IMG/VR virus record: IMGVR_UViG_3300042402_002792
Direction: 5' to 3' (one strand)
From: a virus
Lineage: Duplodnaviria; Heunggongvirae; Uroviricota; Caudoviricetes
DNA: 40,562 bases
In this document: piece after piece, positions 2,726-23,704 of the stretch
How the letters are laid out: each line of letters opens with the position of its first letter
Position numbering within the stretch: the first letter of the stretch is position 1
The notes under the pieces: generated by a model
The model's database searches: none
What the model saw: only the letters and a program-made list of their open reading frames with translations
Told to the model about the DNA's origin: nothing
Position numbers and translations under genes: made by a program

Positions 2726-2726
2726 C

Positions 2727-4761: not shown

Positions 4762-4790
4762 ATTATAACATCAATCTAAGTAGTAGTCAA
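4762..4790 (-). promoter_or_regulatory. sigma70-type early promoter
   Basis: TTGACT-17-TATAAT. Confidence 0.8.
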
Positions 4791-4929: not shown

Positions 4930-4956
4930 TGTCAGCTCCTTTGTTGCTATGTGTGT

Positions 4957-4985
4957 ATTATAACGCACTTTGCCCAAACTGTCAA
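4957..4985 (-). promoter_or_regulatory. sigma70-type early promoter
   Basis: TTGACA-17-TATAAT. Confidence 0.85.
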
Positions 4986-5218: not shown

Positions 5219-5574
5219 TACATCGCCTCTAGTACTGTGTTAAACTTTGCTTCCCATGCTTGCAGGAACTTTGCTGTTACAATGTCGCAGCTCACATAGT
5301 TGTCTCCCTGCATGCCTTGCTCGCTGTAGCTAACGTCTTTGCCTGGCAAGCCGTGTGCATCTAAAAATGCTTTCAGCTCTTGCATAAACTGCTTGTCTGT
5401 GTAAATCAGTCCGTCTTTGTTAACGTCCCAGTCCTCTGTGTTAAAGTAAACACGCAGTTCGCCAAAGTCGCGCTCGTCGTTAATGTATGCAACACGCATG
5501 TCTACAATGCGCACTGCCTTAACAGCCCTGCTCCAGTAGCCCAGACCATTTGTGTTAAATGTTACTGCTTGCAT
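5218..5574 (-). CDS. hypothetical protein (YSEQGMQGDNYVS motif)
   Basis: Start MQAV after AGGAGCGA. Confidence 0.8.
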   Translation of the reverse strand: MQAVTFNTNGLGYWSRAVKAVRIVDMRVAYINDERDFGELRVYFNTEDWDVNKDGLIYTDKQFMQELKAFLDAHGLPGKDVSYSEQGMQGDNYVSCDIVTAKFLQAWEAKFNTVLEAM

Positions 5575-5598
5575 AGTTTCGCTCCTATTTAAAAATGT

Positions 5599-5650
5599 AT
5601 TATAGCACGTTTTGCGCACAGTGTCAATAACCCTATGCGCTGTAGTGTTA
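5599..5650 (-). promoter_or_regulatory. sigma70 promoter with adjacent operator
   Basis: TTGACA-17-TATAAT (5599-5627); TAACCCTA-N7-TAGTGTTA (5628-5650). Confidence 0.85.
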
Positions 5651-5836
5651 TTATGCGTTTAGTTCAAATTCGTCTATGCGTGTTGCTACACTAAAGCCCG
5701 CTTCGCTAAAAAAGTCGCGTGTAAAATTTTGTAGCGCATTGTCAGCATTTTGTTTGCTATTGTAAACGCCAATACTTTCGTATGCGTTCTCGTCGTCCCC
5801 TAGCCCCTGCGCTTGCAGTACATACATTGTTTGCAT
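5651..5836 (-). CDS. hypothetical protein
   Basis: AAGGA RBS, own promoter. Confidence 0.7.
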   Translation of the reverse strand: MQTMYVLQAQGLGDDENAYESIGVYNSKQNADNALQNFTRDFFSEAGFSVATRIDEFELNA

Positions 5837-5871
5837 TTTGTTCCTTTTGCTTTACTGTTTAACATGTATGT

Positions 5872-5922
5872 ATTATAGCGCACTTAGCCCAAAATGTCAA
5901 GTCCCTACTAGCTGTAGGGTTA
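5872..5922 (-). promoter_or_regulatory. sigma70 promoter with adjacent operator
   Basis: TTGACA-17-TATAAT (5872-5900); AGTCCCTA-N7-TAGGGTTA (5900-5922). Confidence 0.85.
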
Positions 5923-5929
5923 TTCTTGA

Positions 5930-6253
5930 TCAGTAGCGTTGAAGCTTACAGCGAGTCTCATAAAAAGGAACTCCGCTGAAAGGATCGCGTCCGATCTGTT
6001 GCGGCCAGCAGTGCTGTCGATACACAGGCTGACCTTCGCGTATGATCACTGGATATTGCGGATGCATAACCACAGGGCCTTGACCTACAACCACAGGTGG
6101 CTGACCGTTGGGGTACTGTTGATTGCGAGTCATTCCCTGTATAGCCAGAACGGCTGCAATACCTGTTACGATACCCTGCTCACGATCACCCCAAGCATGA
6201 GCTTGACTAATGCTAGCCAAAGCAATCATAGAACCAACAATCAGCTTTTTCAT
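5930..6253 (-). CDS. secreted/periplasmic hypothetical protein
   Basis: Sec signal peptide MKKLIVGSMIALASISQAHA; AAGGAG RBS. Confidence 0.8.
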   Translation of the reverse strand: MKKLIVGSMIALASISQAHAWGDREQGIVTGIAAVLAIQGMTRNQQYPNGQPPVVVGQGPVVMHPQYPVIIREGQPVYRQHCWPQQIGRDPFSGVPFYETRCKLQRY

Positions 6254-6276
6254 AGCGTTCTCCTTACTATGACTAT

Positions 6277-6305
6277 AGTATAGCATCAATCCTAACTCGT
6301 GTCAA
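6277..6305 (-). promoter_or_regulatory. sigma70-type early promoter
   Basis: TTGACA-17-TATACT. Confidence 0.8.
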
Positions 6306-6448
6306 CCGATCATTGATGGCCAACCTGAGCAGTTGTCTTTGCCGTATTGAGCGCAGAATATCGCATAAGCAGTTTCATGATCTCGGGCAGTGGTCTGCAC
6401 TCGTTCAAACCAGCCGTTGATCTGTACACTCATTTCAAACAGTTTCAC
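6302..6448 (-). CDS. small hypothetical protein, 48 aa (not in ORF track)
   Basis: GTG start after GAGGAG; MKLFEMSVQINGWFERVQTTARDHETAYAIFCAQYGKDNCSGWPSMIG. Confidence 0.6.
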   Translation of the reverse strand: MKLFEMSVQINGWFERVQTTARDHETAYAIFCAQYGKDNCSGWPSMIG

Positions 6449-6809
6449 GTTCTATCTCCTCGTTAATAACCTGAAGCTTACGCATCAAAGGCCAAACTTG
6501 TTTCTTAGCGTCTTCTATAGCCATTGAGATTTGGTCCTCGGCTGTCCCGTCAGTAAGGACATCGCGGGCATCTTCGTATAAGCATCCGCCCAAGTAGGCG
6601 CTACCGAGCTCGTGACCTTCAACCAGGACCCGGACACGCAGCATGAACCAATCCAGCTTGCCGTAGTCAATGTCCTTGCAGATCTGTTCAATATCGTGGC
6701 ACTCGTCGTCGAAACAATCACGGACATGGATTTCCTCATAGGTCTTGTCTACAATAACCTCAAAGCCTTCGCGCTCATAGCGAGCCAATTCATCGTACCA
6801 GCGTGTCAT
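6435..6809 (-). CDS. acidic hypothetical protein
   Basis: AAGGA RBS; 124-aa ORF. Confidence 0.8.
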   Translation of the reverse strand: MTRWYDELARYEREGFEVIVDKTYEEIHVRDCFDDECHDIEQICKDIDYGKLDWFMLRVRVLVEGHELGSAYLGGCLYEDARDVLTDGTAEDQISMAIEDAKKQVWPLMRKLQVINEEIERETV

Positions 6810-6817
6810 ATCAGTCC

Positions 6818-6964
6818 TTATCGTGTTGCAGGTTTAACAATGATGTCGCAGGGGTAGCCGTCGTGTTCGATCAGCCCTTTGCGTACATACCACAGCTCAC
6901 AGTCTGCGTCATAGAATACAGTGTCAATGACTCGTCCGTTGCGGATAACGTCCCATGCTTTCAT
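6818..6964 (-). CDS. small hypothetical protein, 48 aa (not in ORF track)
   Basis: MKAWDVIRNGRVIDTVFYDADCELWYVRKGLIEHDGYPCDIIVKPATR; AAGGAG RBS. Confidence 0.7.
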   Translation of the reverse strand: MKAWDVIRNGRVIDTVFYDADCELWYVRKGLIEHDGYPCDIIVKPATR

Positions 6965-6973
6965 AAGTGCTCC

Positions 6974-7204
6974 TTAGCAATCTGCGTCAAAAGATTCCCA
7001 TTCCTGGGCTTCGTCGGGCTGACCGTCCCAATCTGGATCTTCAACTAGATAGTCCTCGTCCTCTTCGTCCAGAATGTCGTTAGCACGGCACATGTCTTTA
7101 ACGTCATCTTCGCTCATGTAAGCCAGTGCCATCTCTGCCACAGCTTCTGCAGAGATAAGTCCTTCGTCCATCATCTCCAACAGCTTCGTAGTGTACTTAC
7201 GCAT
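6974..7204 (-). CDS. very acidic small protein
   Basis: DEEDEDYLVEDPDWDGQPDEAQEWESFDAD tail; AAGGAGCGAAC RBS. Confidence 0.8.
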   Translation of the reverse strand: MRKYTTKLLEMMDEGLISAEAVAEMALAYMSEDDVKDMCRANDILDEEDEDYLVEDPDWDGQPDEAQEWESFDADC

Positions 7205-7233
7205 AGGTTCGCTCCTTGTGTGTTACTGTAGCC

Positions 7234-7398
7234 TTAATTATAGCAGGATTTGATAACCTTGTCAACCATAGGGTCTTTACGAGCCACAGCCCGCCATGCC
7301 CGATTGGCTTTGCTATATTGCTTAGGATCTGTAGTAAAGCCCGGGAAGCGACTCTTAGCCCAGATCACAAAGTTCAAACGTTCAATCTCGTTCTTCAT
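7234..7398 (-). CDS. small basic hypothetical protein
   Basis: ATG overlaps the upstream stop; C-terminal VDKVIKSCYN encodes the next promoter. Confidence 0.6.
   Translation of the reverse strand: MKNEIERLNFVIWAKSRFPGFTTDPKQYSKANRAWRAVARKDPMVDKVIKSCYN
7237..7276 (-). promoter_or_regulatory. sigma70 promoter with overlapping operator
   Basis: TTGACA-17-TATAAT (7237-7265); TAACCTTG-N7-TAGGGTCT (7254-7276). Confidence 0.85.
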
Positions 7399-7679
7399 CA
7401 CATAGTCCAGTAGAGTTCGCTTGAAGGATCGCAAGAGCGAGGTGTGTCGTGTGCTATCTGTACGTCCTTGCCCGACATCAAGTTCTTTACAGTCTTCATT
7501 GTAGGGAAGTACTCAAAGCGCCAGCCCTTAGTTGCAGGGTACAGCCAGTAGAGTCCGTTGCACTCGTGTCGCATGCCTTCTTCTGTACGGCCTTGCCAAA
7601 CGGTAGTAGAGAACAGGCGCTCACCTGTCTTGCATCGCTTGTCTGCTTTGTAGATATACATGGTGTAGTCTTGTTTCAT
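7398..7679 (-). CDS. hypothetical protein (TPRSCDPSSELYW motif)
   Basis: AAGGAGCGAG RBS, own promoter. Confidence 0.8.
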   Translation of the reverse strand: MKQDYTMYIYKADKRCKTGERLFSTTVWQGRTEEGMRHECNGLYWLYPATKGWRFEYFPTMKTVKNLMSGKDVQIAHDTPRSCDPSSELYWTM

Positions 7680-7706
7680 CGCTCGCTCCTTTGTGTCTGT
7701 GTATGT

Positions 7707-7735
7707 ATTATAAGATAAAAAGGAACCATTGTCAA
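7707..7735 (-). promoter_or_regulatory. sigma70-type early promoter
   Basis: TTGACA-17-TATAAT. Confidence 0.85.
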
Positions 7736-7745
7736 TCTGTCTCTA

Positions 7746-7907
7746 CCTATACGAACGTCTCGTATAGGCCTTGACGGTCATTACTCCTAGATTGTCCACC
7801 GCAACTCCGGATTGCTCCTGCTTCATGCTCCTGGACTAGACCAGCGCCCGTCGGTACTGTCATCTTCCCAGTCGCCTAGTGGTCTAGGTAACCTTTTTAC
7901 TTACTAT
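7746..7907 (-). ncRNA. candidate structured small RNA
   Basis: Own consensus promoter (7914-7942), no ORF with a properly spaced RBS, stems CTAGACCA/TGGTCTAG and CCTATACGA/TCGTATAGG, six GGA motifs. Confidence 0.45.
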
Positions 7908-7913
7908 GCCTCT

Positions 7914-7953
7914 ATTATAGCACTAATCAATACCCTTGTCAACCATAGGGTCT
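7914..7953 (-). promoter_or_regulatory. sigma70 promoter with overlapping operator
   Basis: TTGACA-17-TATAAT (7914-7942); TACCCTTG-N7-TAGGGTCT (7931-7953). Confidence 0.85.
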
Positions 7954-8280
7954 TTACAAGTATTGATCATTCAACTCTGGCTCAAACAACTTGACCAGCT
8001 CACGCTCGTAAGCATAAGCCTCCTTGCGACCACGCACAATGGCAATGATCTCGTGAGTCCAGTTCATAGCCAATCCACCTGACTTCAAGTAGATGTACAA
8101 GGCCCACAGTCTGTTTTCGTTGACTGCACGGCTCTTGTGCTTGCGCCATCTCTCTGCAACAACCTTGTTGGCATTTGGCAAGCTCTTACGTGTCAAGCCA
8201 ATGTAGCTATCACCACGCTCGCTAGTCATAGCGTAGATGATGTAGTTGCAATCTGTACGTGGTGTTCTGCGTGTCTTCAT
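7954..8280 (-). CDS. GIY-YIG family nuclease (small, stand-alone)
   Basis: IIYAMTSERGDSYIGLT..ERWRKH..E..LN pattern; ATG 6 nt after the -10 box (leaderless). Confidence 0.75.
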   Translation of the reverse strand: MKTRRTPRTDCNYIIYAMTSERGDSYIGLTRKSLPNANKVVAERWRKHKSRAVNENRLWALYIYLKSGGLAMNWTHEIIAIVRGRKEAYAYERELVKLFEPELNDQYL

Positions 8281-8286
8281 GTTAGT

Positions 8287-8315
8287 ATTATACAATGATC
8301 TAGCCAAACTGTCAA
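8287..8315 (-). promoter_or_regulatory. sigma70-type early promoter
   Basis: TTGACA-17-TATAAT. Confidence 0.85.
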
Positions 8316-8368
8316 CCGGCCCCGCACTCGGCTGTGGCGTAAAAGCCACAGCACATTATTATATAATA

Positions 8369-8512
8369 TTAATCTTCTATATAATAATCAAATGCACTTG
8401 CTAATGCATTAAATGCATCCTGTATGTCGACATTATCCTCATAATCCTCCATAATAATGTCTTGCATTTGCAACATTAAACTAGTAAGTTTCTCTTTAAT
8501 ATTATCTTGCAT
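8369..8512 (-). CDS. small acidic hypothetical protein, 47 aa (not in ORF track)
   Basis: MQDNIKEKLTSLMLQMQDIIMEDYEDNVDIQDAFNALASAFDYYIED; AAGGAG RBS. Confidence 0.7.
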   Translation of the reverse strand: MQDNIKEKLTSLMLQMQDIIMEDYEDNVDIQDAFNALASAFDYYIED

Positions 8513-8527
8513 AATAGCTCCTTTTTG

Positions 8528-8800
8528 TTAAACAAATTCAATATTATCTGTACGCAATTGCTTTTTAGCTTGCGATAATACATATGCAGTATCTGCTTGT
8601 AATGTCTCGTAATTAATATCTCCGCTTACATAATTACATTGCTTTTGTGTAGGGAATATATGCACAACTTCTCCATTATCTTTTATTTTTTTATGCACAT
8701 TAAATGCGATAATGATTTTATAAGTTTCTTTATTTTTTACATAGATTAATTTTGCTTTTGCAACTTGTGCAAAAATTGCTTGTTTATATACTGTAGACAT
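8528..8800 (-). CDS. hypothetical protein (first gene of the early cluster, AT-rich)
   Basis: AAGGAGCGAAC RBS, own promoter. Confidence 0.8.
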   Translation of the reverse strand: MSTVYKQAIFAQVAKAKLIYVKNKETYKIIIAFNVHKKIKDNGEVVHIFPTQKQCNYVSGDINYETLQADTAYVLSQAKKQLRTDNIEFV

Positions 8801-8826
8801 AGTTCGCTCCTTGTTACAATAGCGTT

Positions 8827-8855
8827 ATTATAGCAGAGAGGGTCCAAAACGTCAA
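8827..8855 (-). promoter_or_regulatory. sigma70-type early promoter
   Basis: TTGACG-17-TATAAT. Confidence 0.85.
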
Positions 8856-9951: not shown

Positions 9952-10155
9952 ATGCGTATATGTGTTACCTGTGCTAGTAATAGTCGTGAAATTGATCGTA
10001 TATACAGTTACTGTCAACGTAACGGTATACTCATGCACACGGGTTCTTATATATACGCAGATGAAGCCTATTGGATTTGGCGCATTGACAGCGAGTTGAC
10101 TCCTGCCCTAACTTGGTTGTTATTACAGTATCCAGATCAGTTGTGTGTATACTAA
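9952..10155 (+). CDS. hypothetical protein (late, leaderless)
   Basis: TAAATA at 9939-9944, ATG 7 nt later; C-terminal TWLLLQY resembles the LRW family. Confidence 0.55.
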   Translation: MRICVTCASNSREIDRIYSYCQRNGILMHTGSYIYADEAYWIWRIDSELTPALTWLLLQYPDQLCVY

Positions 10156-14238: not shown

Positions 14239-14275
14239 GGCTGTGACCTTTGTGTGTTACAATAGCTTTATTATA

Positions 14276-14563
14276 CTATCGGTCAGCAGATCTGTCAATG
14301 GTTCCTAGAATATATTTGGAAAATTTGAGCTCAAAGATTGTACACCATTTTGGATCTATGATACTCAAACTGGCATGCGGATCTTTGACATGACCTCGAT
14401 ATAGAGTCCAATCACGAAACTCTCTACCCAAATTGTCTTTACACCATTGTTCGATGTCTTCAATGCCGTGTCTGGGTATTTTATAGCTCTTATAAAATCG
14501 AGCCATATACTCTTTGACTAATCGATTTAGTTGTTCAGGGTCGAGCCCCACTTCATCGTCCAA
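14276..14563 (-). CDS. LRW-family-like small protein
   Basis: IEQWCKDNLG...WCTIFELKF; start uncertain. Confidence 0.65.
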   Translation of the reverse strand: MDDEVGLDPEQLNRLVKEYMARFYKSYKIPRHGIEDIEQWCKDNLGREFRDWTLYRGHVKDPHASLSIIDPKWCTIFELKFSKYILGTIDRSADR

Positions 14564-14886
14564 AATGTATAGTCCCTTCCTCGAAGTTTGGCTGTAATAG
14601 CAAACTGATGACCCCAGTTGAGTAGATCAGGCTGTTGATGCCAAATAGGTGTTTCGATAGCATGTGCTATAATCCACTGGCCTTGTTCACTTTGTTCCCA
14701 TTCGATGAAAGGCTGTGCCGCATAGAGTACGGGATCCTCAACATCACCAATTCGAAATCTGTGTACTACAACTTTGTGTATACGTTCGGCAATGCCGTTG
14801 ATAACTTGAATGTCATATTCGTGTCTGTTAGATAAAGGCGAGCCGTCTATGGTCCCGTGATTTGATTTGATATCTGCTACACTCAT
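14527..14886 (-). CDS. LRW-family-like protein
   Basis: C-terminal DYTFWTMKW. Confidence 0.7.
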   Translation of the reverse strand: MSVADIKSNHGTIDGSPLSNRHEYDIQVINGIAERIHKVVVHRFRIGDVEDPVLYAAQPFIEWEQSEQGQWIIAHAIETPIWHQQPDLLNWGHQFAITAKLRGRDYTFWTMKWGSTLNN

Positions 14887-15692
14887 GGATATACTATTAT
14901 GTCAATTTCGCTTGCAACTGCTTGTTTAAAAGGAATAAAATTAATCAACAGTTCAGATAATTTTGTACGCTCTTGTCCATTCTTTTGCCCAAGAATAACA
15001 ACCCCGTGCATAGATCCCGTTCGTTCCACTAACATAACTACACATCTACCTGCGGCATTAGTAGTACCCGTTTTGCTTAACAAAATATTATCATAGTGAA
15101 AGATAACAGGATTAGTATTTTTCAAATGTATAGTAATTGTTTTCTTGCCTTTGGGTATCTTAAGTGTGGCTTGTTGTTCTCTGCTAATATTGTTAATGAC
15201 GTCAATATTTTTAATACGTTGCATGAACAGCACTAGGTTATCTACAGTACTTTTATTTCCTGCTAACAGGCCACTGGCATCTACAATGGTAGTGTCAATA
15301 AGCCCCCAACCTCTAACCCAACTATTAGTATCTTCTAAAAAAGCTGCCATACCGCCAGGGTATGTCAAAGCCAATGTTTCGGCAGCTAGATTATCTGAGC
15401 TGATCAACATAGCTCGCATCAGGTCAATTCGTTTGATCATCGATCCTCGATTAAACCTACCCCCACTGCGACCTTGTACTTTGACTTTCTCGTCTAAGTC
15501 TAAGCCAGCTCGTAAAATAGTAGTAGCAGTAAACAGTTTGGTTATGCTGGCAATACTGCGAACTTCACTGCGATTAAAAACCTGCTGATACTCTGAACGA
15601 TCGTAGTCATAGAGACCCCAGGCGCCTTGACTAGGCTGTGTATAACCGATAGAACTTAGGCAAAGCATGCCTGTAATAAAAAGTTTTTTCAT
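14883..15692 (-). CDS. peptidase S11 (D-alanyl-D-alanine carboxy/endopeptidase, PBP7/DacA-like)
   Basis: Signal peptide; SxxK (ASITKL), SDN and KTG motifs; TAAATA 4 nt before the ATG. Confidence 0.9.
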   Translation of the reverse strand: MKKLFITGMLCLSSIGYTQPSQGAWGLYDYDRSEYQQVFNRSEVRSIASITKLFTATTILRAGLDLDEKVKVQGRSGGRFNRGSMIKRIDLMRAMLISSDNLAAETLALTYPGGMAAFLEDTNSWVRGWGLIDTTIVDASGLLAGNKSTVDNLVLFMQRIKNIDVINNISREQQATLKIPKGKKTITIHLKNTNPVIFHYDNILLSKTGTTNAAGRCVVMLVERTGSMHGVVILGQKNGQERTKLSELLINFIPFKQAVASEIDIIVYP

Positions 15693-16110: not shown

Positions 16111-16329
16111 TTATAATGCGTGTTGATTGTAGGTAGGAGACTGTTCGCAAATATATTTGCCAGTCCATAGGTGTTTAACTATATTACAGTCAGCACCGGT
16201 CGCTAGACTAGCACCGTGATCTACAATGCTCTTACCTGTAGTAATTACACTGGCTACACTAGCTGTATTATAAGTAGCACACCCATTGAGACTTGCTAGA
16301 GTCAAACCGACTACAGCAAGTTTTAACAT
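16111..16329 (-). CDS. small lipoprotein
   Basis: Lipobox LNGC. Confidence 0.7.
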   Translation of the reverse strand: MLKLAVVGLTLASLNGCATYNTASVASVITTGKSIVDHGASLATGADCNIVKHLWTGKYICEQSPTYNQHAL

Positions 16330-16886
16330 TAATCTAACTCTTTAAGAGCCTGTGGTGCTCTGGCTGCTGCCAGTTCACGTTGACGTGCGGCTTCTTTAGC
16401 TCGACGTAGAATGTTAGCATCGCCTGTTGGCATAACAACTAACACATAGGCACGATATCGATTACCTTCAGCAATCATCTTAATACCATCTTTTGACACT
16501 TCAACACCTGTAAGGTCAACTTCTTTACAGCTAGACTTTAGTGCCATTTCGCTAAACTCAGTACTGGTTGCTTCGCTGTCAGTTCGATAGATCTTAGTTT
16601 TTTGACTAGCAGTGCCGCCAACACTCATACAGATCTTTCCGTATGCATCAGCTTTGGCTTTGTGAATAGCCATAGAGTAATCACCACTGACACTAGTACC
16701 CGAAGCATAAACAGCCGAACTACTAGTTGGCAGATCAGTCATCCATTTAGGCGCTTTGTCGATAGTACGCTCAACCTGCCGAATCTGTCGGTCACGTTCT
16801 TGTTCAGCACGTTTGGCCATAGGATCAGTTGTACCACATGCGGCAAGCAGGGCAACAATTGGCAACAGTGTTAAAATCTTTTTCAT
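16329..16886 (-). CDS. lipoprotein (LPP20-like)
   Basis: Lipobox LAAC; APKW...Y.SG...AI.KAKADA pattern. Confidence 0.8.
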   Translation of the reverse strand: MKKILTLLPIVALLAACGTTDPMAKRAEQERDRQIRQVERTIDKAPKWMTDLPTSSSAVYASGTSVSGDYSMAIHKAKADAYGKICMSVGGTASQKTKIYRTDSEATSTEFSEMALKSSCKEVDLTGVEVSKDGIKMIAEGNRYRAYVLVVMPTGDANILRRAKEAARQRELAAARAPQALKELD

Positions 16887-17150: not shown

Positions 17151-17723
17151 TTACCATTTATCTACCACACGCCAGACCTTTTGATCTCGCGCACGACAGA
17201 TAATACCTTGCTCCATATCAACTGCACCTATGCGAGGCCTTGATTCTACAAACCAACGACATAGGCTTCCTCGATAACCAAACTCTGTTTTGTTAAGAGG
17301 ATGCGGCTGTACTTCGCTTTCCCAAACCATGTCACCAACATCGACTTTAGGTCTATCTTTGGGCATGGGCTTATCTGTACAGATCATTTCTTGACTAGCG
17401 TTAATACGTGATCCGCTCACAGATTCTAATATATTGATCCTTGTAGCAGTTTGTGCTCTACGACAAGCTTGATCAATACTTTCATTATTATTAAACAACT
17501 CTTCACCCTGCGCTGTGTGCCAGCGTCCGTCTATCAAAGCTCTAAATGTTACACGACATCTACTTTGAGTTCGATTAACAGGTGTTACAGATTGCTCAAC
17601 ATCAGTTGTGCGCTCAATCTTACTAAGCAGAGTCTGAGTTGTTGCTGAACGCATATAACATTCAGCCTGAGTTTGACTTGCAAGAAAGATTAATAACCAC
17701 GGCAGTTTGTTCTTATAGACCAT
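17151..17723 (-). CDS. secreted Cys-containing hypothetical protein
   Basis: Signal-like N-terminus ending in TQA/EC; six Cys. Confidence 0.75.
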   Translation of the reverse strand: MVYKNKLPWLLIFLASQTQAECYMRSATTQTLLSKIERTTDVEQSVTPVNRTQSRCRVTFRALIDGRWHTAQGEELFNNNESIDQACRRAQTATRINILESVSGSRINASQEMICTDKPMPKDRPKVDVGDMVWESEVQPHPLNKTEFGYRGSLCRWFVESRPRIGAVDMEQGIICRARDQKVWRVVDKW

Positions 17724-17968
17724 AGTATTGTTTTAGCAGAACTGGTACGTTGTTGGGCTGTCTGATATCCAGATAGGTTAGCAAAACTAGCTCGCCATTC
17801 TGGGTAATCTACGTTTGGATAATCTATAACTCTAGCAAGATCACTGCTCATTTTACCAGCCCATGCACAGTTTACCTGTACAGGACTAATAGGCTGTTCT
17901 ACTCTAGCAACATGACTGCTAGAAGCACATCCTGTAAGTAATCCGCAAAGAATTAAAATAGTTCTCAT
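17690..17968 (-). CDS. lipoprotein
   Basis: Lipobox LTGC. Confidence 0.75.
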   Translation of the reverse strand: MRTILILCGLLTGCASSSHVARVEQPISPVQVNCAWAGKMSSDLARVIDYPNVDYPEWRASFANLSGYQTAQQRTSSAKTILWSIRTNCRGY

Positions 17969-18006
17969 ACTATTATAATACAGTCTATTCGAAATAAAAT
18001 CAACCG

Positions 18007-18237
18007 TTATGGCTGTTTTCCACTCCAGCGAAGAATAAACCAGTCTCTTTGGCTTTCTTTTCGAAAACTGAACAGTCGTCCAGTCATACGCATACCAGTA
18101 CCAAACTCACTGTTGCACCAATCTTCCATTTCTTTGAGTTCTTCATCGGACACTTTGGTCACATCCTCTCCGTCGTCATCTTCTACCAAAACACCAGGCA
18201 AACGGAACATGCCAACTTCACAAGTTTTCAATATCAT
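18007..18237 (-). CDS. LRW-family small protein
   Basis: MEDWC...FSFRKESQRDWFILRWS. Confidence 0.75.
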   Translation of the reverse strand: MILKTCEVGMFRLPGVLVEDDDGEDVTKVSDEELKEMEDWCNSEFGTGMRMTGRLFSFRKESQRDWFILRWSGKQP

Positions 18238-18570
18238 TTAAGAACTCCACCTTAATAGGAACATGGTAATATGCTTGTCTTCTTTGAACAACCACATGTC
18301 AAAACTCAATCGTTTGGCTGAAGGAATGTTAGTCCAAATCCAATTCTGTACTTCATCCATATCACCATCACGTAGCCCTCGTTCGAACCCTCGTGGCCCT
18401 ACTTCTGTGTAGGCTTTGAGTTTGCGTCCCGGCAATCGTAGCCAAGATATCTTAACCGGTACATCCATATTGCTGTTCCATATGTTCATCCACTTCTGAA
18501 GTTCGCTCTTGCCAACCCCACGCCCTGTGAGCTGAACCAAGCCTTGCCCTTTGTATTGATAGTTACTCAT
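18238..18570 (-). CDS. LRW-family small protein
   Basis: VQNWI...WLFKEDKHITMFLLRWS. Confidence 0.75.
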   Translation of the reverse strand: MSNYQYKGQGLVQLTGRGVGKSELQKWMNIWNSNMDVPVKISWLRLPGRKLKAYTEVGPRGFERGLRDGDMDEVQNWIWTNIPSAKRLSFDMWLFKEDKHITMFLLRWSS

Positions 18571-18838
18571 GGTATGTGATTAAATCAAATGCTGTTGCAT
18601 ACTGTGTTTCAGGTTCCATATGGAAGCCAGTGCCCCATACTACCCAAACTTTACGTTTATAAACCTTCTTCCACCAAATGCCTCTGCCAGTGACAGTCTT
18701 AACAGGCCACCAAGCAAACACTTCGTGCCATGGATAACAGTCTGCTCCGTTGGTTATAATAGTGTATTCCATTTTGCGTTTCTTATAGCCTTGCACGTCA
18801 ATGTTCCATCCTATACTCCGGCCCCAAACTATTTTCAT
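18563..18838 (-). CDS. FAWxPV-family small protein
   Basis: PWHEVFAWWPVKT..GR.IW.K.VY.R; ATGA overlap. Confidence 0.7.
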   Translation of the reverse strand: MKIVWGRSIGWNIDVQGYKKRKMEYTIITNGADCYPWHEVFAWWPVKTVTGRGIWWKKVYKRKVWVVWGTGFHMEPETQYATAFDLITYHE

Positions 18839-19152
18839 TTGAAACTTTCTTCTAACCAATCTTTGGCAAAGCTATAGGTCTTGTTCTCTATTATATACTC
18901 ACTGAAGGCAATTCTAAAGAGGTATGCTGCCTTTCGGCTTTCAAACTGTATCAAAGGTAACACTATTCGGCGATCTGCATCACTCTTTAGATGATTCTCT
19001 TGATAGTTATGTATAATATGGAATCGTTCAAACGGACCGTTGGCTGGATAGTTCTTGCACCATTCAATCATATCACTGTTGGTTGTCTGCATGAGAAAAC
19101 GATAGGTAAAGTCTGGACGATTGTTGCCGCCGCTGGTAAAGTAGTATTCCAT
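18835..19152 (-). CDS. LRW-family-like small protein
   Basis: MIEWC...IQFESRKAAYLFRIAF. Confidence 0.7.
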   Translation of the reverse strand: MEYYFTSGGNNRPDFTYRFLMQTTNSDMIEWCKNYPANGPFERFHIIHNYQENHLKSDADRRIVLPLIQFESRKAAYLFRIAFSEYIIENKTYSFAKDWLEESFK

Positions 19153-19153
19153 A

Positions 19154-19342
19154 TCAACTCTTTATAACATCAAAGACAGTGCCATACTCGTAATGAGACC
19201 AATCATCAAAGTCAACATAGGTGTTGATGCAACGACGGTAGACAGTCTTTAACCAAACACGACGACCGTGTATCTTTACTGGACGCCAGGCAAACCATTG
19301 CTGCCAGGGCATTGTTTCTATTTTTCTAGCAACAAGAGTCAT
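19154..19342 (-). CDS. FAWxPV-family small protein
   Basis: PWQQWFAWRPVKIHGRRVWLKTVYRR. Confidence 0.75.
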   Translation of the reverse strand: MTLVARKIETMPWQQWFAWRPVKIHGRRVWLKTVYRRCINTYVDFDDWSHYEYGTVFDVIKS

Positions 19343-19593
19343 CGTGCCCACCTCAATGCAAACCAAAATGCTTCTTTGTCATCTACAAACTCAATGAACT
19401 TTTCTTTTAAGTATCCTGGACTGTGATAATAAGGATATTTGCAGTTTTCTTCCAACCACGCATCAACTTTGTGATCTAAATAACTGCGTTGGTATTGTGC
19501 CTGTACACCGTCTACAGTGTCGGCATACTTTACCTTGTGTAACACAGGCACACGAACACCGAGATATTTGCTTTCTTTATAAGTTATGGTCAT
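19339..19593 (-). CDS. LRW-family small protein
   Basis: VDAWLEENC...IEFVDDKEAFWFALRWA. Confidence 0.8.
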   Translation of the reverse strand: MTITYKESKYLGVRVPVLHKVKYADTVDGVQAQYQRSYLDHKVDAWLEENCKYPYYHSPGYLKEKFIEFVDDKEAFWFALRWAR

Positions 19594-19775
19594 TGCGCCC
19601 ACCTTAGTGCAAACCACATAGCGTCTCGTTCATCGCTGAAAAAGTAATCAACCTGTGTAGGATCATAGGTGTTATACCCGTCACAATGCAGATCATTGGT
19701 GACGTAACTGGGACAGTTAGCCTTAGCCCATTCTAGTGGAGTCCACAAGGGATCGTAGGGTATTGTGACAGTCAT
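19590..19775 (-). CDS. LRW-family small protein
   Basis: LEWAKANC...YFFSDERDAMWFALRWA. Confidence 0.8.
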   Translation of the reverse strand: MTVTIPYDPLWTPLEWAKANCPSYVTNDLHCDGYNTYDPTQVDYFFSDERDAMWFALRWAQ

Positions 19776-20167
19776 GACGAATATTTTAGTGCTATCATCA
19801 TAGCATCTCTTTCATTGTTGGTTGCAACAAACACTTGTTCTTGATCGTATCGCATATCGCTAAGATGAAACTTACCGTCCCACGGATCTCTATAGCCACG
19901 AGCAAAGTGATAGACTGCACAGTTATCCAAATCTCTGTTAGGATGCATGTACTGCCGAAAGTCCTTGCACGGAACCCAACCAAACGGTTCATTGATATCA
20001 AACATCCGTGTAGTCACAGGAATGATGTATCTGAAGTGCATGAACATATTCTCAATGGTACCAGCACGACTAACCACCGTTCCATCATACCAGTTGCGAA
20101 AATCTCGTGTTGTCTTATCTTGTCCAGTGCTCCACGTTAGATAACGATCTTTAATCCATTCAATCAT
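19772..20167 (-). CDS. LRW-family-like protein
   Basis: C-terminal NNERDAMMIALKY. Confidence 0.75.
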   Translation of the reverse strand: MIEWIKDRYLTWSTGQDKTTRDFRNWYDGTVVSRAGTIENMFMHFRYIIPVTTRMFDINEPFGWVPCKDFRQYMHPNRDLDNCAVYHFARGYRDPWDGKFHLSDMRYDQEQVFVATNNERDAMMIALKYSS

Positions 20168-20370
20168 GCCCACCTCAATGCAAACCAGTTGGCATCACGT
20201 TGATTCTTAAAATAGAACTCTGTATAGTTGTATTGATAAACAACATGCCATCGTCCTCTGAATGTGCCAAACTGTTCACCTAGCCACAGTTCAACAGGTG
20301 TGATGTCTTTAGTGTTATCTGAGTTTACTCTAACACTACAGGGCCATAGTTCTTTCTTTAATATTCTCAT
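20164..20370 (-). CDS. LRW-family small protein
   Basis: VELWLGEQFG...FYFKNQRDANWFALRWA. Confidence 0.8.
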   Translation of the reverse strand: MRILKKELWPCSVRVNSDNTKDITPVELWLGEQFGTFRGRWHVVYQYNYTEFYFKNQRDANWFALRWA

Positions 20371-20603
20371 GACCACCTCAATACAAACATCATAAACTTT
20401 TTGTCGTCTAGGACTTCGTAGTATTCAATTTTACCACGATTCAATATTAATCTTACACCATACCTGGTTTCTAAAAAGTGTAAATGGCTATCAGTGCTGG
20501 CATGTCCGGTGACGAATCTTGCTTCGGGCGGAAGATGCATTGGTGGCTTTTCTTTACACCACTGTTTGCTAACCATTTTTGAAAACTCTTCTGTAGCTAT
20601 CAT
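20367..20603 (-). CDS. LRW-family small protein
   Basis: LDDKKFMMFVLRWS. Confidence 0.75.
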   Translation of the reverse strand: MIATEEFSKMVSKQWCKEKPPMHLPPEARFVTGHASTDSHLHFLETRYGVRLILNRGKIEYYEVLDDKKFMMFVLRWS

Positions 20604-20785
20604 GCCCACCTCAAAATAAACAGCATTTTGATTTTTTCATTGACTAATTGTATTACCATTCCGTGTCTTTCGCAACCGTGATCTTCTAGCCATTTGTCAA
20701 TTACTTGTTCGTTATCGGCATAAAACATATAATCTTCAATAAGGGCAGTAGTACTATGGAATATAAATTTATTCTTTACGACCAT
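20600..20785 (-). CDS. LRW-family small protein
   Basis: IDKWLEDHG...VNEKIKMLFILRWA. Confidence 0.75.
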   Translation of the reverse strand: MVVKNKFIFHSTTALIEDYMFYADNEQVIDKWLEDHGCERHGMVIQLVNEKIKMLFILRWA

Positions 20786-20812
20786 CTCAATACAAACCGA
20801 TCAACTGTTCGT

Positions 20813-20932
20813 TCATAAAAACCACTCCTTGATGTGCCAGCCAACAATGCAGACAATATTAAACCATAAAGCAAACAACACCGTGTAGAGATATATCATA
20901 GCCCAGCGTCCTGCTCGTTCTCCTTCGGTCAT
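20813..20932 (-). CDS. small membrane protein, 39 aa (not in ORF track)
   Basis: MTEGERAGRWAMIYLYTVLFALWFNIVCIVGWHIKEWFL; GGAGG RBS, ATGA overlap. Confidence 0.6.
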   Translation of the reverse strand: MTEGERAGRWAMIYLYTVLFALWFNIVCIVGWHIKEWFL

Positions 20933-21246
20933 TGTGCCTCCACTGTCATCGGGCATCGACCATCGACTGTGGCTCCAAAACCCAAAGGACAAGCGATCTT
21001 GGTTCTATCCGCATTGCACTTGGGGCAGACCCAACCTTTGGGTTCTTCAACTCCGAAATGTTGTTTAATCTGTTCACCAATCATTCGGCCTGACCATCCC
21101 GGATGATCCTCACAAGTCTGCAACATTTCTGCCACAATCAACTCGGCGAACTTTTCTAACGTGTCTTCCCACTTAGCACGATCTTTACCTAGACCATAGA
21201 CATCTAAATGGCTTGTTCTTGCAAACTCTCTAATTCGTTCATTCAT
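20929..21246 (-). CDS. hypothetical protein (MNERI...EKFAELIV family) with C-terminal CxxC
   Basis: MNERIREFA, LEKFAELIV, IKQHFGVEE, CPKC. Confidence 0.75.
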   Translation of the reverse strand: MNERIREFARTSHLDVYGLGKDRAKWEDTLEKFAELIVAEMLQTCEDHPGWSGRMIGEQIKQHFGVEEPKGWVCPKCNADRTKIACPLGFGATVDGRCPMTVEAQ

Positions 21247-21647
21247 CTTGCTAATTCCAATAACATTTGATATTGTTCCCAAACTTTCTTTACCGCAGGA
21301 TTTCGATGTCTAATTTTATCGTCTTCTATTTCCTGCAAATACTTTTGTTTATAATACTGTGCTTCTTGTTCCATTTTACCTAACCAACGATCACGTTCGA
21401 CTAAGTCTCTAAACTTATCCTGCGGTATATAAATCTCTATCATAGGCTCTCGTTCTATTTCTTGATGAAAGGGTATGTTAGCACCGTCCTTTAACCAATC
21501 TGTATATCTTACAGGCACAGGTCTAGCATATACTTTATGCCTACTCAGTTCTGCTTGTGCTTGATACTTCTTACAAAATAAATTAACTTCGTCTTCTGCG
21601 CTTAAAGTATTTTGTGAATAATCATATTGTTGATTATAATAATTCAT
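21243..21647 (-). CDS. hypothetical protein
   Basis: C-terminal NPAVKKVWEQYQMLLEL; ATGA overlaps. Confidence 0.75.
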   Translation of the reverse strand: MNYYNQQYDYSQNTLSAEDEVNLFCKKYQAQAELSRHKVYARPVPVRYTDWLKDGANIPFHQEIEREPMIEIYIPQDKFRDLVERDRWLGKMEQEAQYYKQKYLQEIEDDKIRHRNPAVKKVWEQYQMLLELAR

Positions 21648-21907
21648 TGTTCTACATCCTGAGCCCATAATCTTACTGCTACTATAGCATCAACCATACC
21701 TTGTTCGTAGCCTTCCCAGTAAGGTCCGTACATGGCTTCATCTTTAGCATCTCGCCATCCTCTTAGATCTTTTTCAATATCTTCTAACATTAGTCTAATG
21801 AACCGTTCTAATGCAGGACGATCCAAATGTGCTAGATACAGTCGACCCCCTGCACGAGATATAATTTCATCTAATTTGTCGTTAAAGTTTACGTTTTTAT
21901 AGTCCAT
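21644..21907 (-). CDS. hypothetical protein
   Basis: ORF in overlapping operon. Confidence 0.7.
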   Translation of the reverse strand: MDYKNVNFNDKLDEIISRAGGRLYLAHLDRPALERFIRLMLEDIEKDLRGWRDAKDEAMYGPYWEGYEQGMVDAIVAVRLWAQDVEQ

Positions 21908-22193
21908 TTAACCACCTTAACTTAAACCACATGGCATCTCGGTCTTTTTCAAACATCCACACTAGACCGTGTGTCCATATAGCTCCTTTGATATTGTCTT
22001 CTACCCATGTATCAATATGATAGCACTGTTCCCAATCCATCGGAGTTAGGATAACTTCATGCCATCCTAGTTCTTGATACATAGACCTCATAAGCTGAGC
22101 ATCTATTTCAGATGCTAGTACTTTTGATTGCTCTGCAATAATTTGTTCTTGTAGTTCACCGCTACGATCAGTTAACAAACGTTTCTTTTGCAT
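21897..22193 (-). CDS. LRW-family small protein
   Basis: IDTWVEDNI...WMFEKDRDAMWFKLRW. Confidence 0.8.
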   Translation of the reverse strand: MQKKRLLTDRSGELQEQIIAEQSKVLASEIDAQLMRSMYQELGWHEVILTPMDWEQCYHIDTWVEDNIKGAIWTHGLVWMFEKDRDAMWFKLRWLNGL

Positions 22194-22198
22194 GTTGT

Positions 22199-22420
22199 TT
22201 ACTCAGCATATTTTATAGCAAACAATGTAGCATACTTTTCTGCATAAAATGTAAAGATAGTATGCCGTTCTCTAGTTGTTCCTGCAAAGGTATCGTAAAG
22301 TTCAGGATAGTGAGCAAAGTCAAAATCTTTACCCTGCCACAACCCCTGACTACGAAGTTGATACACCATTTCCATAATTTCAACTACATGACGTTGTTTT
22401 ACAATTACTTCTACAGCCAT
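22199..22420 (-). CDS. LRW-family-like small protein
   Basis: FTFYAEKYATLFAIKY. Confidence 0.75.
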   Translation of the reverse strand: MAVEVIVKQRHVVEIMEMVYQLRSQGLWQGKDFDFAHYPELYDTFAGTTRERHTIFTFYAEKYATLFAIKYAE

Positions 22421-22731
22421 TTTAATTTAAACCAATTCGCTTCTTTTTCGGTACGCAGATAAATCTTAAAGTTATCAAAATTAGTATGCCAACACCATTT
22501 GTCATTTTTGCCAACTGCACTGTCGTCTAGCATTAACCAAAAGTCTAATTCACAACTAGGTCCGTAGGTTTCCCAACACCATTCTCTAATTTGATTAAGA
22601 TCGTTTGCTTTTTGTATTGCAGACTGCCGTCCGTAGTTGATATTAACTGCTTTTTCTATAATAACAATGTACTGCCAAAACTGATTGCCGTTATGCCGCT
22701 TGTCAGTTTTCTTAAGTGTAAATCTCATCAT
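22411..22731 (-). CDS. LRW-family small protein
   Basis: IREWCWETYG...IYLRTEKEANWFKLKW. Confidence 0.8.
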   Translation of the reverse strand: MMRFTLKKTDKRHNGNQFWQYIVIIEKAVNINYGRQSAIQKANDLNQIREWCWETYGPSCELDFWLMLDDSAVGKNDKWCWHTNFDNFKIYLRTEKEANWFKLKWL

Positions 22732-23630: not shown

Positions 23631-23704
23631 ATTATAATACAATGTGGTTAATAAGTCAATATCTTTTGGCAGAGGTTGACAAATATGTACAATACCTATA
23701 TAAT
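23631..23704. promoter_or_regulatory. back-to-back divergent sigma70 promoters at the strand switch
   Basis: Minus: TTGACT-17-TATAAT (23631-23659); plus: TTGACA-17-TATAAT (23676-23704). Confidence 0.85.

What the first reader, a model, noticed from the sequence alone, without database searches (positions are those of the whole stretch)
18007..22731. Array of about 15 divergent small paralogs sharing a C-terminal (W/M)F-x-L-(R/K)-W motif: candidate undescribed effector family
Seen: C-termini WFILRW (18007), MFLLRW (18238), LFRIAF (18835), WFALRW (19339, 19590, 20164), MIALKY (19772), MFVLRW (20367), LFILRW (20600), WFKLRW (21897), LFAIKY (22199) and WFKLKW (22411), plus outliers IFELKF (14276), FWTMKW (14527) and WLLLQY (9952). 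Most also carry an upstream helix [IV]-x-x-W-[CL] and a strand F-x-F-x-x-E-[KR]-[DE]-A, while the N-terminal and middle parts are unrelated. Inference: one small alpha/beta fold with a conserved aromatic docking helix and a hypervariable face. This would suit interchangeable adaptors or inhibitors that dock on a common partner while recognising different host targets (for example anti-defence factors). I know of no characterised function for this family.
Basis: partly seen in the sequence, partly recalled or inferred. Interest (0 to 1): 0.8.

Follow-up and report, generated by a model that had tools for sequence, protein, structure and literature searches.

The report
Jumbo-phage array of small LRW-tail proteins
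A 364-kb uncultured freshwater phage carries a row of at least 11 very different small early genes built on one tiny, undescribed protein fold, and the fold's conserved Leu-Arg-Trp ending also spells the next gene's ribosome-binding site; the family is widespread in giant phages, but what it does is untested.

Summary
Eleven minus-strand genes between 18007 and 22731 form one family. 14276-14563 is a probable twelfth member and 18835-19152 is doubtful. 14527-14886 and 9952-10155 are not members.

The shared part is a C-terminal module of about 45-55 residues, not just six. AlphaFold models of two members give the same beta-alpha-beta-beta-alpha sandwich. It resembles solved structures only generically (ACT/RRM-like, Z about 6).

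No Pfam, PHROG, NCBIfam, PADLOC or PDB sequence match exists. A profile search nevertheless finds 771 cluster representatives, nearly all small proteins. Cultured jumbo phages carry copies: Phosso 37 matches, Atu_ph07 5, PA5oct 3.

The conserved aromatic residues look like the fold's core, not a proven docking helix. In 7 of 8 LRW members Arg-Trp is written AGG TGG, which places a Shine-Dalgarno site 5-8 nt before the next start codon. Lineages without this coupling do not keep the Arg.

The genes sit in a sigma-70-promoter-driven (early-type) operon and are under purifying selection (dN/dS about 0.07-0.09). A 98-99% identical strain lacks six of them.

The most likely role is a set of specialised early accessory binders (host takeover, counter-defence or competition with other phages). 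This is inferred, not shown. Earlier notes of this scan describe the same family in other phage genomes.

The parts
23631..23659 (-). Near-consensus sigma-70-type promoter (TTGACT-17-TATAAT) at the head of the minus-strand operon that holds the array
   Evidence: 11 of 12 consensus matches. It is one of 21 such sites in the window, against 1.4 expected from shuffles. A 12/12 site faces the other way at 23676-23704.
22411..22731 (-). Family member, 106 aa, tail WFKLKWL
   Evidence: HMM 52 bits (self-trained), 21.7 bits (outside HMM), 14 bits leave-one-out. The next gene's ATG lies inside its AAA TGG codons.
22199..22420 (-). Family member, 73 aa, tail LFAIKYAE (weakest of the firm members)
   Evidence: 10.0 bits leave-one-out and 16.7 bits with the outside HMM, against decoy maxima of 9.5 and 8.1.
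21897..22193 (-). Family member, 98 aa, tail WFKLRWLNGL, with a long N-terminal helix (residues 3-41) that may derive from the capsid-protein spine-helix region
   Evidence: AlphaFold pLDDT 88.9: H3-41 followed by b-a-b-b-a. hhalign of its subfamily against gp23/gp24-type capsid proteins gives probability 58.8%, E 9e-5. AGG TGG lies 7 nt before the next ATG.
20776..20796 (-). Vestigial 3' end of a lost member (...DRFVLRWS*). The ATG of the next member lies inside its AGA TGG codons.
   Evidence: Sixth copy of direct-repeat family D3; sequence read and translated.
20600..20785 (-). Family member, 61 aa, tail LFILRWA
   Evidence: 19.6 bits leave-one-out. TTG AGG TGG GCA TGA with an overlapping ATGA start for the next gene.
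20367..20603 (-). Family member, 78 aa (start corrected), tail MFVLRWS
   Evidence: 15.8 bits leave-one-out. AGG TGG TCA TGA junction. The public gene call is 78 aa.
20164..20370 (-). Family member, 68 aa (start corrected), tail WFALRWA; this is the member that was modelled
   Evidence: AlphaFold pLDDT 77.8: b1 13-18, a1 26-36, b2 43-47, b3 51-56, a2 59-69. An 82%-identical ortholog in another large phage gives dN/dS 0.09.
19772..20167 (-). Family member, 131 aa (start corrected), tail MIALKYSS, with a large insert between a1 and b2
   Evidence: 11.5 bits leave-one-out and 11.7 bits with the outside HMM. hhalign probability 93%, but over the last 17 residues only.
19590..19775 (-). Family member, 61 aa, tail WFALRWAQ
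   Evidence: 29.4 bits leave-one-out. CTA AGG TGG GCG CAA TGA junction.
19339..19593 (-). Family member, 84 aa (start corrected), tail WFALRWAR
   Evidence: 27.9 bits leave-one-out. TTG AGG TGG GCA CGA TGA junction.
18238..18570 (-). Family member, 110 aa, tail MFLLRWSS
   Evidence: 22.3 bits leave-one-out. TTA AGG TGG AGT TCT TAA ATG junction. dN/dS 0.07 against strain L005.
18007..18237 (-). Last family member, 76 aa, tail WFILRWSGKQP; the only LRW member whose Arg is CGC
   Evidence: 23.3 bits leave-one-out. No closely following gene (38 nt gap).
18001..18015 (-). Terminator-like hairpin at the stop codon of the last member
   Evidence: Consensus scan only.
14276..14563 (-). Probable divergent member outside the array (tail IFELKFSK plus 12 residues)
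   Evidence: hhalign against the family profile: probability 93%, E 2.9e-7, 49 columns. Outside HMM 15.6 bits.
18835..19152 (-). Doubtful member (IEWC helix, LFRIAF, long C-terminal extension)
   Evidence: hhalign probability 12% in a sensible register. HMM 7.1 bits, which is within decoy range.

Best explanation
The region is a tandem array of 11 (probably 12-13) small accessory genes of a 364-kb freshwater jumbo phage. They belong to a widespread, so far unnamed family.

Shown:
- Each protein ends in a module of about 45-55 residues predicted to fold as a minimal two-layer beta-alpha-beta-beta-alpha sandwich.
- The genes are real and under purifying selection.
- They are chained by overlapping stop and start codons. 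In 7 of 8 LRW members the Arg-Trp codons are AGG TGG, which places a Shine-Dalgarno-like GAGG/AAGG 5-8 nt before the next ATG.
- The Arg is not kept in phage lineages that lack this coupling.
- The genes lie behind a near-consensus sigma-70 promoter.
- A nearly identical strain lacks six of them.

Inferred:
- The invariant Trp of helix 1, the F-x-F of strand 3 and A/F/L/W of helix 2 form the hydrophobic core. The constant part is therefore a scaffold.
- Specificity lies in the unrelated N-terminal extensions (0-90 residues), in the loop between helix 1 and strand 2 (0-40 residues), and in the exposed sheet face.
- The proteins act early in the host cytoplasm as separately specialised binders of different host, defence-system or rival-phage proteins. 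They make up a fast-turnover accessory set in which genes are gained and lost as cassettes at the conserved 3' junction.
For: Family and module:
- Leave-one-out HMM 10-33 bits against a decoy maximum of 9.5. The outside HMM recovers all 11.
- 771 representatives at E<=1e-3 among 1.84 billion proteins. Median length of the best 150 is 78 aa, with the module at the very C-terminus.

Fold:
- Two models (pLDDT 77.8 and 88.9) share the same b-a-b-b-a core.
- Both have the same best structural match, ACT domain 5v0s_B: Z 6.1, rmsd 2.4 over 55 residues, and Z 6.0, rmsd 2.1 over 53.
- BFVD matches reach TM 0.6-0.77, only to uncharacterised phage proteins.
- The conservation pattern fits core positions.

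Real genes:
- dN/dS is 0.09 against a diverged ortholog, and 0.07 pooled against a sister strain.

Translational coupling:
- 7 of 8 Arg codons in the tail are AGG, against 6% AGG in 20 long genes (P=2.5e-8).
- The exception is the last gene, which has no close downstream start.
- In 61 IMG/VR loci, 139 of 189 Arg codons of members not used to seed the search are AGG.
- Phosso tails read DAMLFKL-x-[WFY] with x = R/T/A/S and mixed codons. PA5oct tails are LQF/LIH/LYF.

Early and accessory:
- Promoter at 23659-23631; there are 21 near-perfect sigma-70 sites against 1.4 expected.
- In strain L005, which is 98-99% identical in the flanks, window 18571-21133 is replaced by 1.5 kb of other small genes.
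- A vestigial LRW tail lies at 20776-20796.
- The PA5oct copies are not among the genes flagged as found in virions by mass spectrometry.

Heterogeneous surfaces:
- pI ranges from 4.1 to 9.8.
Against: - No binding partner, phenotype or expression datum exists for any member. The functional part rests on context only.
- 'Early' rests on promoter consensus alone.
- Core versus surface was judged from sequence periodicity and predicted secondary structure, not from coordinates.
- The turn before helix 2 (N/D-E-K/R-D) and the E-N at the end of helix 1 are conserved polar residues. They could form a shared functional site, which would favour a common-partner model.
- Sequence signal outside the last ~16 residues is weak.
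Confidence: 0.55

Rival explanations
1. First reader's model. The conserved C-terminal module docks on one common partner (a host or phage machine such as a protease or chaperone), and the variable parts bring different targets to it. The proteins would be interchangeable adaptors or inhibitors.
For: - Helix 2 is conserved at almost every position (61-69).
- The polar turn N/D-E-K/R-D-A and the E-N of helix 1 are conserved beyond simple capping needs.
- By topology both lie at the pole where the variable loop emerges (inference).
- Related phage contigs also encode ClpX, ClpS, HSP70 and HSP20.
Against: - The conserved hydrophobic residues fit a buried-core pattern.
- The Arg of LRW is dispensable in Phosso and PA5oct.
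- No conserved neighbour gene was seen next to the arrays in the loci examined.
- No partner has been identified.
Confidence: 0.15
2. The conserved tail is mainly a nucleic-acid-level element: a ribosome-binding site plus a short recombination junction. This lets any small ORF be plugged into the operon, and the proteins themselves have no shared or important function (a gene nursery or selfish cassettes).
For: - AGG TGG usage and ATGA overlaps.
- The 3' ends form the only DNA repeat family in the array.
- A vestigial tail lies at a junction.
- Cassette replacement between strains.
- Some members elsewhere carry captured pieces of the capsid gene.
Against: - dN/dS of 0.07-0.09 over whole genes.
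- The module is about 45-55 residues with an invariant Trp about 35 residues upstream of the tail, and it gives confident fold predictions.
- The protein motif persists in Phosso and PA5oct with other codons and without the Arg.
Confidence: 0.1
3. The module is a small ligand- or nucleic-acid-binding domain of the ACT/RRM (ferredoxin-like) kind, and the proteins are regulators that sense metabolites or bind RNA/DNA.
For: Best structural matches are ACT domains, RRMs and designed ferredoxin folds at Z 5-6.
Against: - Z of about 6 is in the range the tool reports for common arrangements only.
- There is no fourth strand.
- No Pfam ACT or RRM hit.
- The exposed sheet face is not conserved.
- pI ranges from 4.1 to 9.8.
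Confidence: 0.08
4. The proteins act on capsid assembly or on capsid-sensing host immunity as look-alikes of capsid protein segments.
For: - Relatives P0069 and P0073 carry the gp23 N-arm segment: Pfam Gp23 E 2.7e-10 and 3.1e-7, and 57-59% identity to jumbo-phage capsid proteins.
- The subfamily of member 21897 aligns to the capsid spine-helix region at hhalign probability 58.8%.
- Three of its relatives give weak Pfam Gp23 hits to the same region.
Against: - Only 4 of 323 (N-arm) and 11 of 323 (helix type) members in IMG/VR loci show such pieces.
- Ten of the eleven window members show none.
- A profile search of PDB sequences with the subfamily finds no capsid protein.
Confidence: 0.07

Closest known systems
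Lineage-specific expansions of small proteins in jumbo phages (e.g. about 35 zinc-ribbon copies in Bacillus phage G; Iyer et al. 2021, PMC7824862)
   Same: Many diverged copies of one small domain in a giant phage genome; function guessed only from context.
   Different: The domain is different: no zinc ribbon and no conserved Cys or His. That review does not mention this family. Here the copies are chained by a coding-sequence Shine-Dalgarno site.
Clusters of small non-essential immediate-early genes behind host sigma-70 promoters in T4-like phages (textbook knowledge, not tested here)
   Same: Small genes, strong consensus sigma-70 promoters, tight packing, variable content between related phages.
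   Different: T4 itself and Aeromonas phage Ah1 have no copy of this family. Here a single family supplies most of the cluster.
ACT / RRM / designed ferredoxin-like two-layer alpha/beta sandwiches
   Same: Same order and packing of b-a-b-b-a elements: 5v0s_B Z 6.1, rmsd 2.4 over 55 residues, and Z 6.0, rmsd 2.1 over 53.
   Different: It lacks the fourth strand, has no sequence relation and no family motif. The Z score is in the range of a common arrangement.
Translational coupling through a Shine-Dalgarno motif inside the upstream gene, with ATGA stop/start overlap
   Same: GAGG/AAGG lies 5-8 nt before the next ATG, inside the last codons of the upstream gene. The stop and start codons overlap.
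   Different: Here the motif is fixed in a conserved protein tail across hundreds of paralogs. It explains a rare-codon choice (AGG 74-88% against 6%) and probably the near-invariance of the Arg.

Membership tests
Unnamed 'LRW-tail' small-protein family of jumbo phages (defined here by HMMs from A2/A3) | C-terminal F-x-F-x-x-E-x-D-A-x-x-F-x-L-(R/K)-(W/Y) within 0-5 residues of the stop codon | tested here: met
   Met by 11 genes. In relatives, 102 of 150 have exactly one residue after the motif.
Unnamed 'LRW-tail' small-protein family of jumbo phages (defined here by HMMs from A2/A3) | Invariant Trp in helix 1 ([IV]-x-x-W-[CL]-x-E-N), upstream of a variable loop | tested here: met
   Trp is present in 11/11 window members and 92/92 relatives.
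Unnamed 'LRW-tail' small-protein family of jumbo phages (defined here by HMMs from A2/A3) | Profile score above decoys when the tested gene is left out of the model | tested here: met
   10.0-33.5 bits against a best score of 9.5 among 7,960 decoys. Outside HMM 11.7-59 bits against 8.1. 14527-14886 and 9952-10155 fail; 18835-19152 is inconclusive.
Unnamed 'LRW-tail' small-protein family of jumbo phages (defined here by HMMs from A2/A3) | Shared b-a-b-b-a fold | tested here: met
   Predicted for two members. The other nine were not modelled.
ACT domain (Pfam PF01842 and relatives) | Sequence match to the family model; b-a-b-b-a-b with four strands | tested here: not met
   No Pfam hit at E<=1 for 10 members or at E<=0.01 for 92 relatives. 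The models have three strands. Structural likeness is only Z about 6.
RNA recognition motif (RRM) | Match to the Pfam RRM models (which carry the RNP1/RNP2 motifs) | tested here: not met
   No Pfam RRM hit. The RNP motifs themselves were not looked for. Fold likeness of Z 4.6-5.7 is inconclusive.
gp23-type major capsid protein (Pfam PF07068), for the N-terminal helix of member 21897-22193 | Score above the Pfam gathering cut-off (24.4 bits) | tested here: not met
   The window member has no hit at E<=0.1. Relatives P0014/P0092/P0093 score 14.6-16.8 bits. hhalign of the subfamily against capsid proteins gives probability 58.8%. Other relatives (P0069 40.7 bits, P0073 30.6 bits) pass the cut-off, but for a different capsid segment.
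Known anti-defence proteins (anti-CRISPR, Ocr-like DNA mimics and others) | Homology to a characterised inhibitor, or demonstrated inhibition | not testable with these tools
   No anti-defence library was at hand. PDB sequence and fold searches gave no such match, which is inconclusive. PADLOC holds defence proteins only, and there was no consistent hit.
Translationally coupled operon junction with intragenic Shine-Dalgarno site | SD-like motif 5-10 nt upstream of the next start and inside the upstream ORF; stop/start overlap; codon choice biased towards the motif | tested here: met
   7 of 8 junctions; AGG 7/8 against a 6% background, P=2.5e-8. SD-like tetramers precede 11 of 23 other genes, against a 6% background. 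Actual coupling of translation was not tested.

The most novel reading that the evidence does not exclude
The module is a universal plug-in scaffold of giant phages that displays short peptides or loops. Some of these are copied from the phage's own essential proteins, such as the capsid protein's most conserved segments. Each copy would occupy or blind a different host sensor or rival-phage factor early in infection. Its tail would have co-evolved with the operon's translation signals, so that new cassettes are expressed as soon as they are inserted.
Probability: 0.12. Interest if true: 0.85.

Novelty: new variant of a known kind. Interest (0 to 1): 0.58.

Why it matters
The family is one of the larger unnamed protein families of giant phages. 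A profile search finds 771 clusters at 50% identity. Loci of 15 kb or less hold up to 20 copies, and a cultured Sinorhizobium phage has 37 matches. No library or paper found here names it.

It gives a compact, well-predicted scaffold of 45-55 residues with natural hypervariable parts. This is the pattern expected of a binder set in an arms race, so it is a good place to look for new inhibitors of host functions or defences.

It is also a clean natural case in which a translation signal fixes an amino acid and a rare codon in a protein tail. That matters for reading conservation in small phage proteins.

Three cultured carriers (PA5oct, Atu_ph07, Phosso) make experiments possible.

Tried and rejected
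- Megablast of 7 kb against the phage collection found no match.
- tblastn with short members (window 20164, P0008) found nothing. Short diverged queries are beyond its reach.
- No whole genome is held for the window. The 364-kb record could not be fetched, so the copy number for the window's own genome is unknown.
- Homodimer prediction (two copies, alignment A3) returned no verdict, score 0.00. This is not evidence either way.
- Foldseek against PDB gave nothing at E<=0.001 for either model.
- A PDB sequence-profile search gave nothing below E 0.1 for A3 or A4.
- I suspected that P0025 and member 18238 carry a terminase or helicase Walker-A fragment. This was not confirmed: there was no relevant Pfam hit, and tblastn gave only E 0.1-0.8 to helicases.
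- Metal binding by the C-x3-C of helix 1 was rejected, because the window members replace these Cys with L/V/I/A.
- The PA5oct paper has no gene-level data for the three family members in its text, and no supplement is held.
It was used only as a source of loci, not for counts.

Full report
**What is there.**
The window is part of a 363,992-bp contig from freshwater metagenomes. No close relative exists in the phage collection. Its genes are typical of large phages: 2OG-Fe(II) oxygenases, an M23 peptidase, a GDSL lipase, an epimerase and an aminotransferase.

From about 23.6 kb down to about 9.9 kb the minus strand is packed with small genes.

**Is it one family?**
- All-against-all BLASTP links the members over 12-67 residues.
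- In leave-one-out tests each of eleven genes scores 10.0-33.5 bits against an HMM built from the other ten. The best of 7,960 shuffled decoys scores 9.5 bits.
- An HMM built from 91 outside sequences plus one window member scores all eleven at 11.7-59 bits, against a decoy maximum of 8.1.
- Removing the last six residues leaves 8-14 bits in about half of the genes. Removing sixteen leaves little. Most of the sequence information therefore lies in F-x-F-x-x-E-x-D-A-x-x-F-x-L-R-W. The Trp of the upstream helix is nevertheless invariant in 11/11 members and 92/92 relatives.
- Among the outliers, 14276-14563 aligns to the family profile over 49 columns at 93% probability. 18835-19152 reaches 12% and 14527-14886 reaches 0.7%. 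A negative control gives 0.6%. The ORF at 9952 scores under 3 bits.
- The count is therefore 11 firm, 1 probable and 1 doubtful, not about 15.

**Gene models.**
Five ORF starts from the mechanical list are too long. The real ATGs overlap the preceding stop as ATGA, and the resulting lengths (78, 68, 131, 84 and 62 aa) are those of the public gene calls.

**Fold.**
- AlphaFold with a 92-sequence alignment models member 20164-20370 as b1-a1-b2-b3-a2 (pLDDT 77.8, pTM 0.60).
- With a 15-sequence alignment, member 21897-22193 gives a long N-terminal helix followed by the same five elements (pLDDT 88.9, pTM 0.69).
- Foldseek finds no solved structure at E<=0.001 for either model.
- The exhaustive aligner gives the same best specific match for both models, the ACT domain 5v0s_B: Z 6.1, rmsd 2.4 over 55 residues, and Z 6.0, rmsd 2.1 over 53. 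The other matches are RRMs and designed ferredoxin folds. By the tool's own calibration this means a common arrangement only.
- Among predicted viral structures, the matches (TM 0.6-0.77) are uncharacterised proteins of uncultured phages and of Agrobacterium phage Atu_ph07.
- The refutation criterion 'structures share no fold' is therefore not met.

**Known family?**
- None of 10 members matches Pfam or PHROGs.
- None of 92 relatives has a consistent match in Pfam, PHROGs, PADLOC or NCBIfam.
- PDB sequence profiles give nothing.
- The jumbo-phage comparative review does not describe the family, and a text search for the motif found no paper.

**Distribution.**
- A profile of the eleven domains finds 771 representatives (50% identity clusters) at E<=1e-3 among 1.84 billion proteins. 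The best 150 have a median length of 78 residues, and nearly all have the module at the very end.
- All those that carry a name are 'hypothetical protein'.
- Cultured jumbo phages carry the family: Sinorhizobium phage Phosso has 37 matches, Atu_ph07 has 5 and Pseudomonas phage PA5oct has 3. 121Q, T4 and Aeromonas phage Ah1 have none.
- The three PA5oct genes (EST35_0247, 0274, 0275) are annotated as hypothetical. Unlike some of their neighbours, they are not flagged as detected in virions.
- In 61 IMG/VR loci of 15 kb or less there are 323 members, up to 20 per locus. A related large phage contig (L001) has five or six in a row.

**The tail doubles as a ribosome-binding site.**
Earlier notes of this scan on other genomes gave this lead, and I tested it here.
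- In 7 of the 8 members ending in LRW, Arg-Trp is written AGG TGG. AGG makes up 6% of Arg codons in 20 long genes of the window (P=2.5e-8) and 2 of 50 Arg codons in the bodies of the family genes.
- The resulting GAGG/AAGG lies 5-8 nt before the next gene's ATG, which in six family junctions overlaps the stop as ATGA (five of them after AGG TGG).
- SD-like tetramers precede 11 of 23 other genes, against 6% of random windows, so the phage does use such sites.
- The one exception, the last member 18007-18237, uses CGC. It has no gene within 38 nt and ends at a terminator-like hairpin.
- In the IMG/VR loci, 189 of 233 members not used to seed the search have Arg at this position, and 139 of those 189 use AGG.
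- In Phosso the tail is DAMLFKL-x-[WFY], with x = R, T, A, S and others, and with mixed Arg codons. In PA5oct the tails are LQF, LIH and LYF.
- The fold therefore needs F-x-L and a final aromatic residue, but not the Arg. The near-invariance of the Arg in the freshwater lineage is best explained by the translation signal.

**Core or docking surface?**
- The strongly conserved positions are I/V28, W31 and C/L32 in helix 1. In strand 3 they are F54 and F56. Helix 2 contributes D61, A62, a hydrophobic residue at 64, F65, A/I66, L67 and W69.
- These follow the spacing of helix faces that pack on a sheet and on each other, and of inward-pointing strand positions. For a domain this small they are most simply its core.
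- This is an inference, because no coordinates were available.
- The conserved polar turn (N/D58, E59, K/R60, D61) and E34-N35 could be capping residues or a shared site. I cannot tell which, so the common-partner model stays alive at low odds.

**Real, selected, accessory, early.**
- Member 20164-20370 and its 82%-identical ortholog in L001 give dN/dS 0.09. Five members compared with strain L005 give a pooled 0.07.
- L005 is 99.1% and 98.3% identical to the window on the two sides of the array, but window 18571-21133 is replaced by 1.5 kb of other small genes. That stretch holds six family members, two genes of a second small family and others.
- A vestigial tail...DRFVLRWS*, lies at 20776-20796. 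The ATG of the next member sits in its AGA TGG codons.
- The 3' ends are the only repeated DNA in the array.
- The operon starts behind TTGACT-17-TATAAT at 23659-23631. The window holds 21 sites with at least 11 of 12 consensus matches, all with a 17-nt spacer, against 1.4 expected. This is the signature of host-polymerase early transcription in T4-like phages (textbook knowledge; not measured here).
- The members have no common charge: pI ranges from 4.1 to 9.8.

**Capsid pieces.**
- Some relatives outside the window carry the most conserved N-arm segment of the gp23-type capsid protein in front of the module. P0069 matches Pfam Gp23 at E 2.7e-10, P0073 at E 3.1e-7, and they are 57-59% identical to jumbo-phage capsid proteins.
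- Window member 21897-22193 belongs to a subfamily whose N-terminal helix aligns to the capsid spine-helix region at hhalign probability 58.8%, E 9e-5. Three relatives give weak Pfam hits to the same region. A PDB profile search does not find capsid proteins.
- Such pieces are rare: 4 and 11 of 323 members.
- I read them as evidence that the N-terminal parts are captured or swapped modules. A capsid look-alike role is possible but unproven.

**Verdict.**
The single fold and the 'uncharacterised family' claim are supported. The docking-helix and anti-defence ideas are untested, and part of the tail's conservation has a different cause, the ribosome-binding site.

The most likely reading is a fast-turnover set of early, cytoplasmic, separately specialised small binders built on one minimal scaffold. 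The structural and evolutionary statements are well supported. The functional one is inference, at roughly 40-50%.

The scan has found this family before on other DNA, and another note covers this same stretch.

Noticed in passing
window 106-8855 (minus strand), also 14270-14298 and 23631-23704: There are 21 near-perfect sigma-70 promoters (at least 11 of 12 matches to TTGACA-17-TATAAT, all with a 17-nt spacer), against 1.4 expected. Seventeen lie on the minus strand between 106 and 8855, some only about 200 bp apart. This looks like a dense early region of tiny genes.
   Followed up: partly
window 18563-18838 and 19154-19342 (minus strand): A second small paralog pair sits inside the array. 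The two share FAW-x-PVK...GR-x-(I/V)W-(W/L)-K-x-VY(K/R)R (BLASTP E 8e-11 within the window set). No Pfam hit.
   Followed up: partly
window 20929-21246 (minus strand); L005 9112-9402, 9882-10142, 10139-10387: A third small family has the motifs KFAELIV and I(K/R)-x-HFGVEE. The left breakpoint of the strain-specific cassette swap (window 21134) lies inside this gene, just after the shared FAELIV segment.
   Followed up: partly
L012 (Aeromonas phage Ah1, NC_055733.1) 2501-2671: An unannotated short ORF between rIII and the next gene encodes ...VVVNAKPRKLTASWTLDVE.... This resembles the N-terminal extension of family member P0093 and the capsid E-loop/spine motif.
   Followed up: no
window 14883-15692, 16329-16886, 16111-16329, 17690-17968 (minus strand): The phage encodes a D-Ala-D-Ala carboxypeptidase (Peptidase_S11) with a hydrophobic N-terminus that looks like a signal sequence. 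Several small proteins have lipoprotein-like N-termini (a hydrophobic stretch followed by Cys). These suggest envelope-directed functions.
   Followed up: no
L001 8119-8934 and PA5oct EST35_0248: A metallophosphoesterase gene lies directly next to family members in two unrelated large phages. This may be chance.
   Followed up: no
L001 (ENA ERZ27257036 contig, 63.9 kb): A related large phage contig encodes ribosomal protein S21, ClpX, ClpS, HSP70, HSP20, heme oxygenase, a ferredoxin-dependent bilin reductase and CsgG/CsgF near its family array.
   Followed up: no
window 12-97 (minus strand): tRNA-Leu (anticodon TAA).
   Followed up: no
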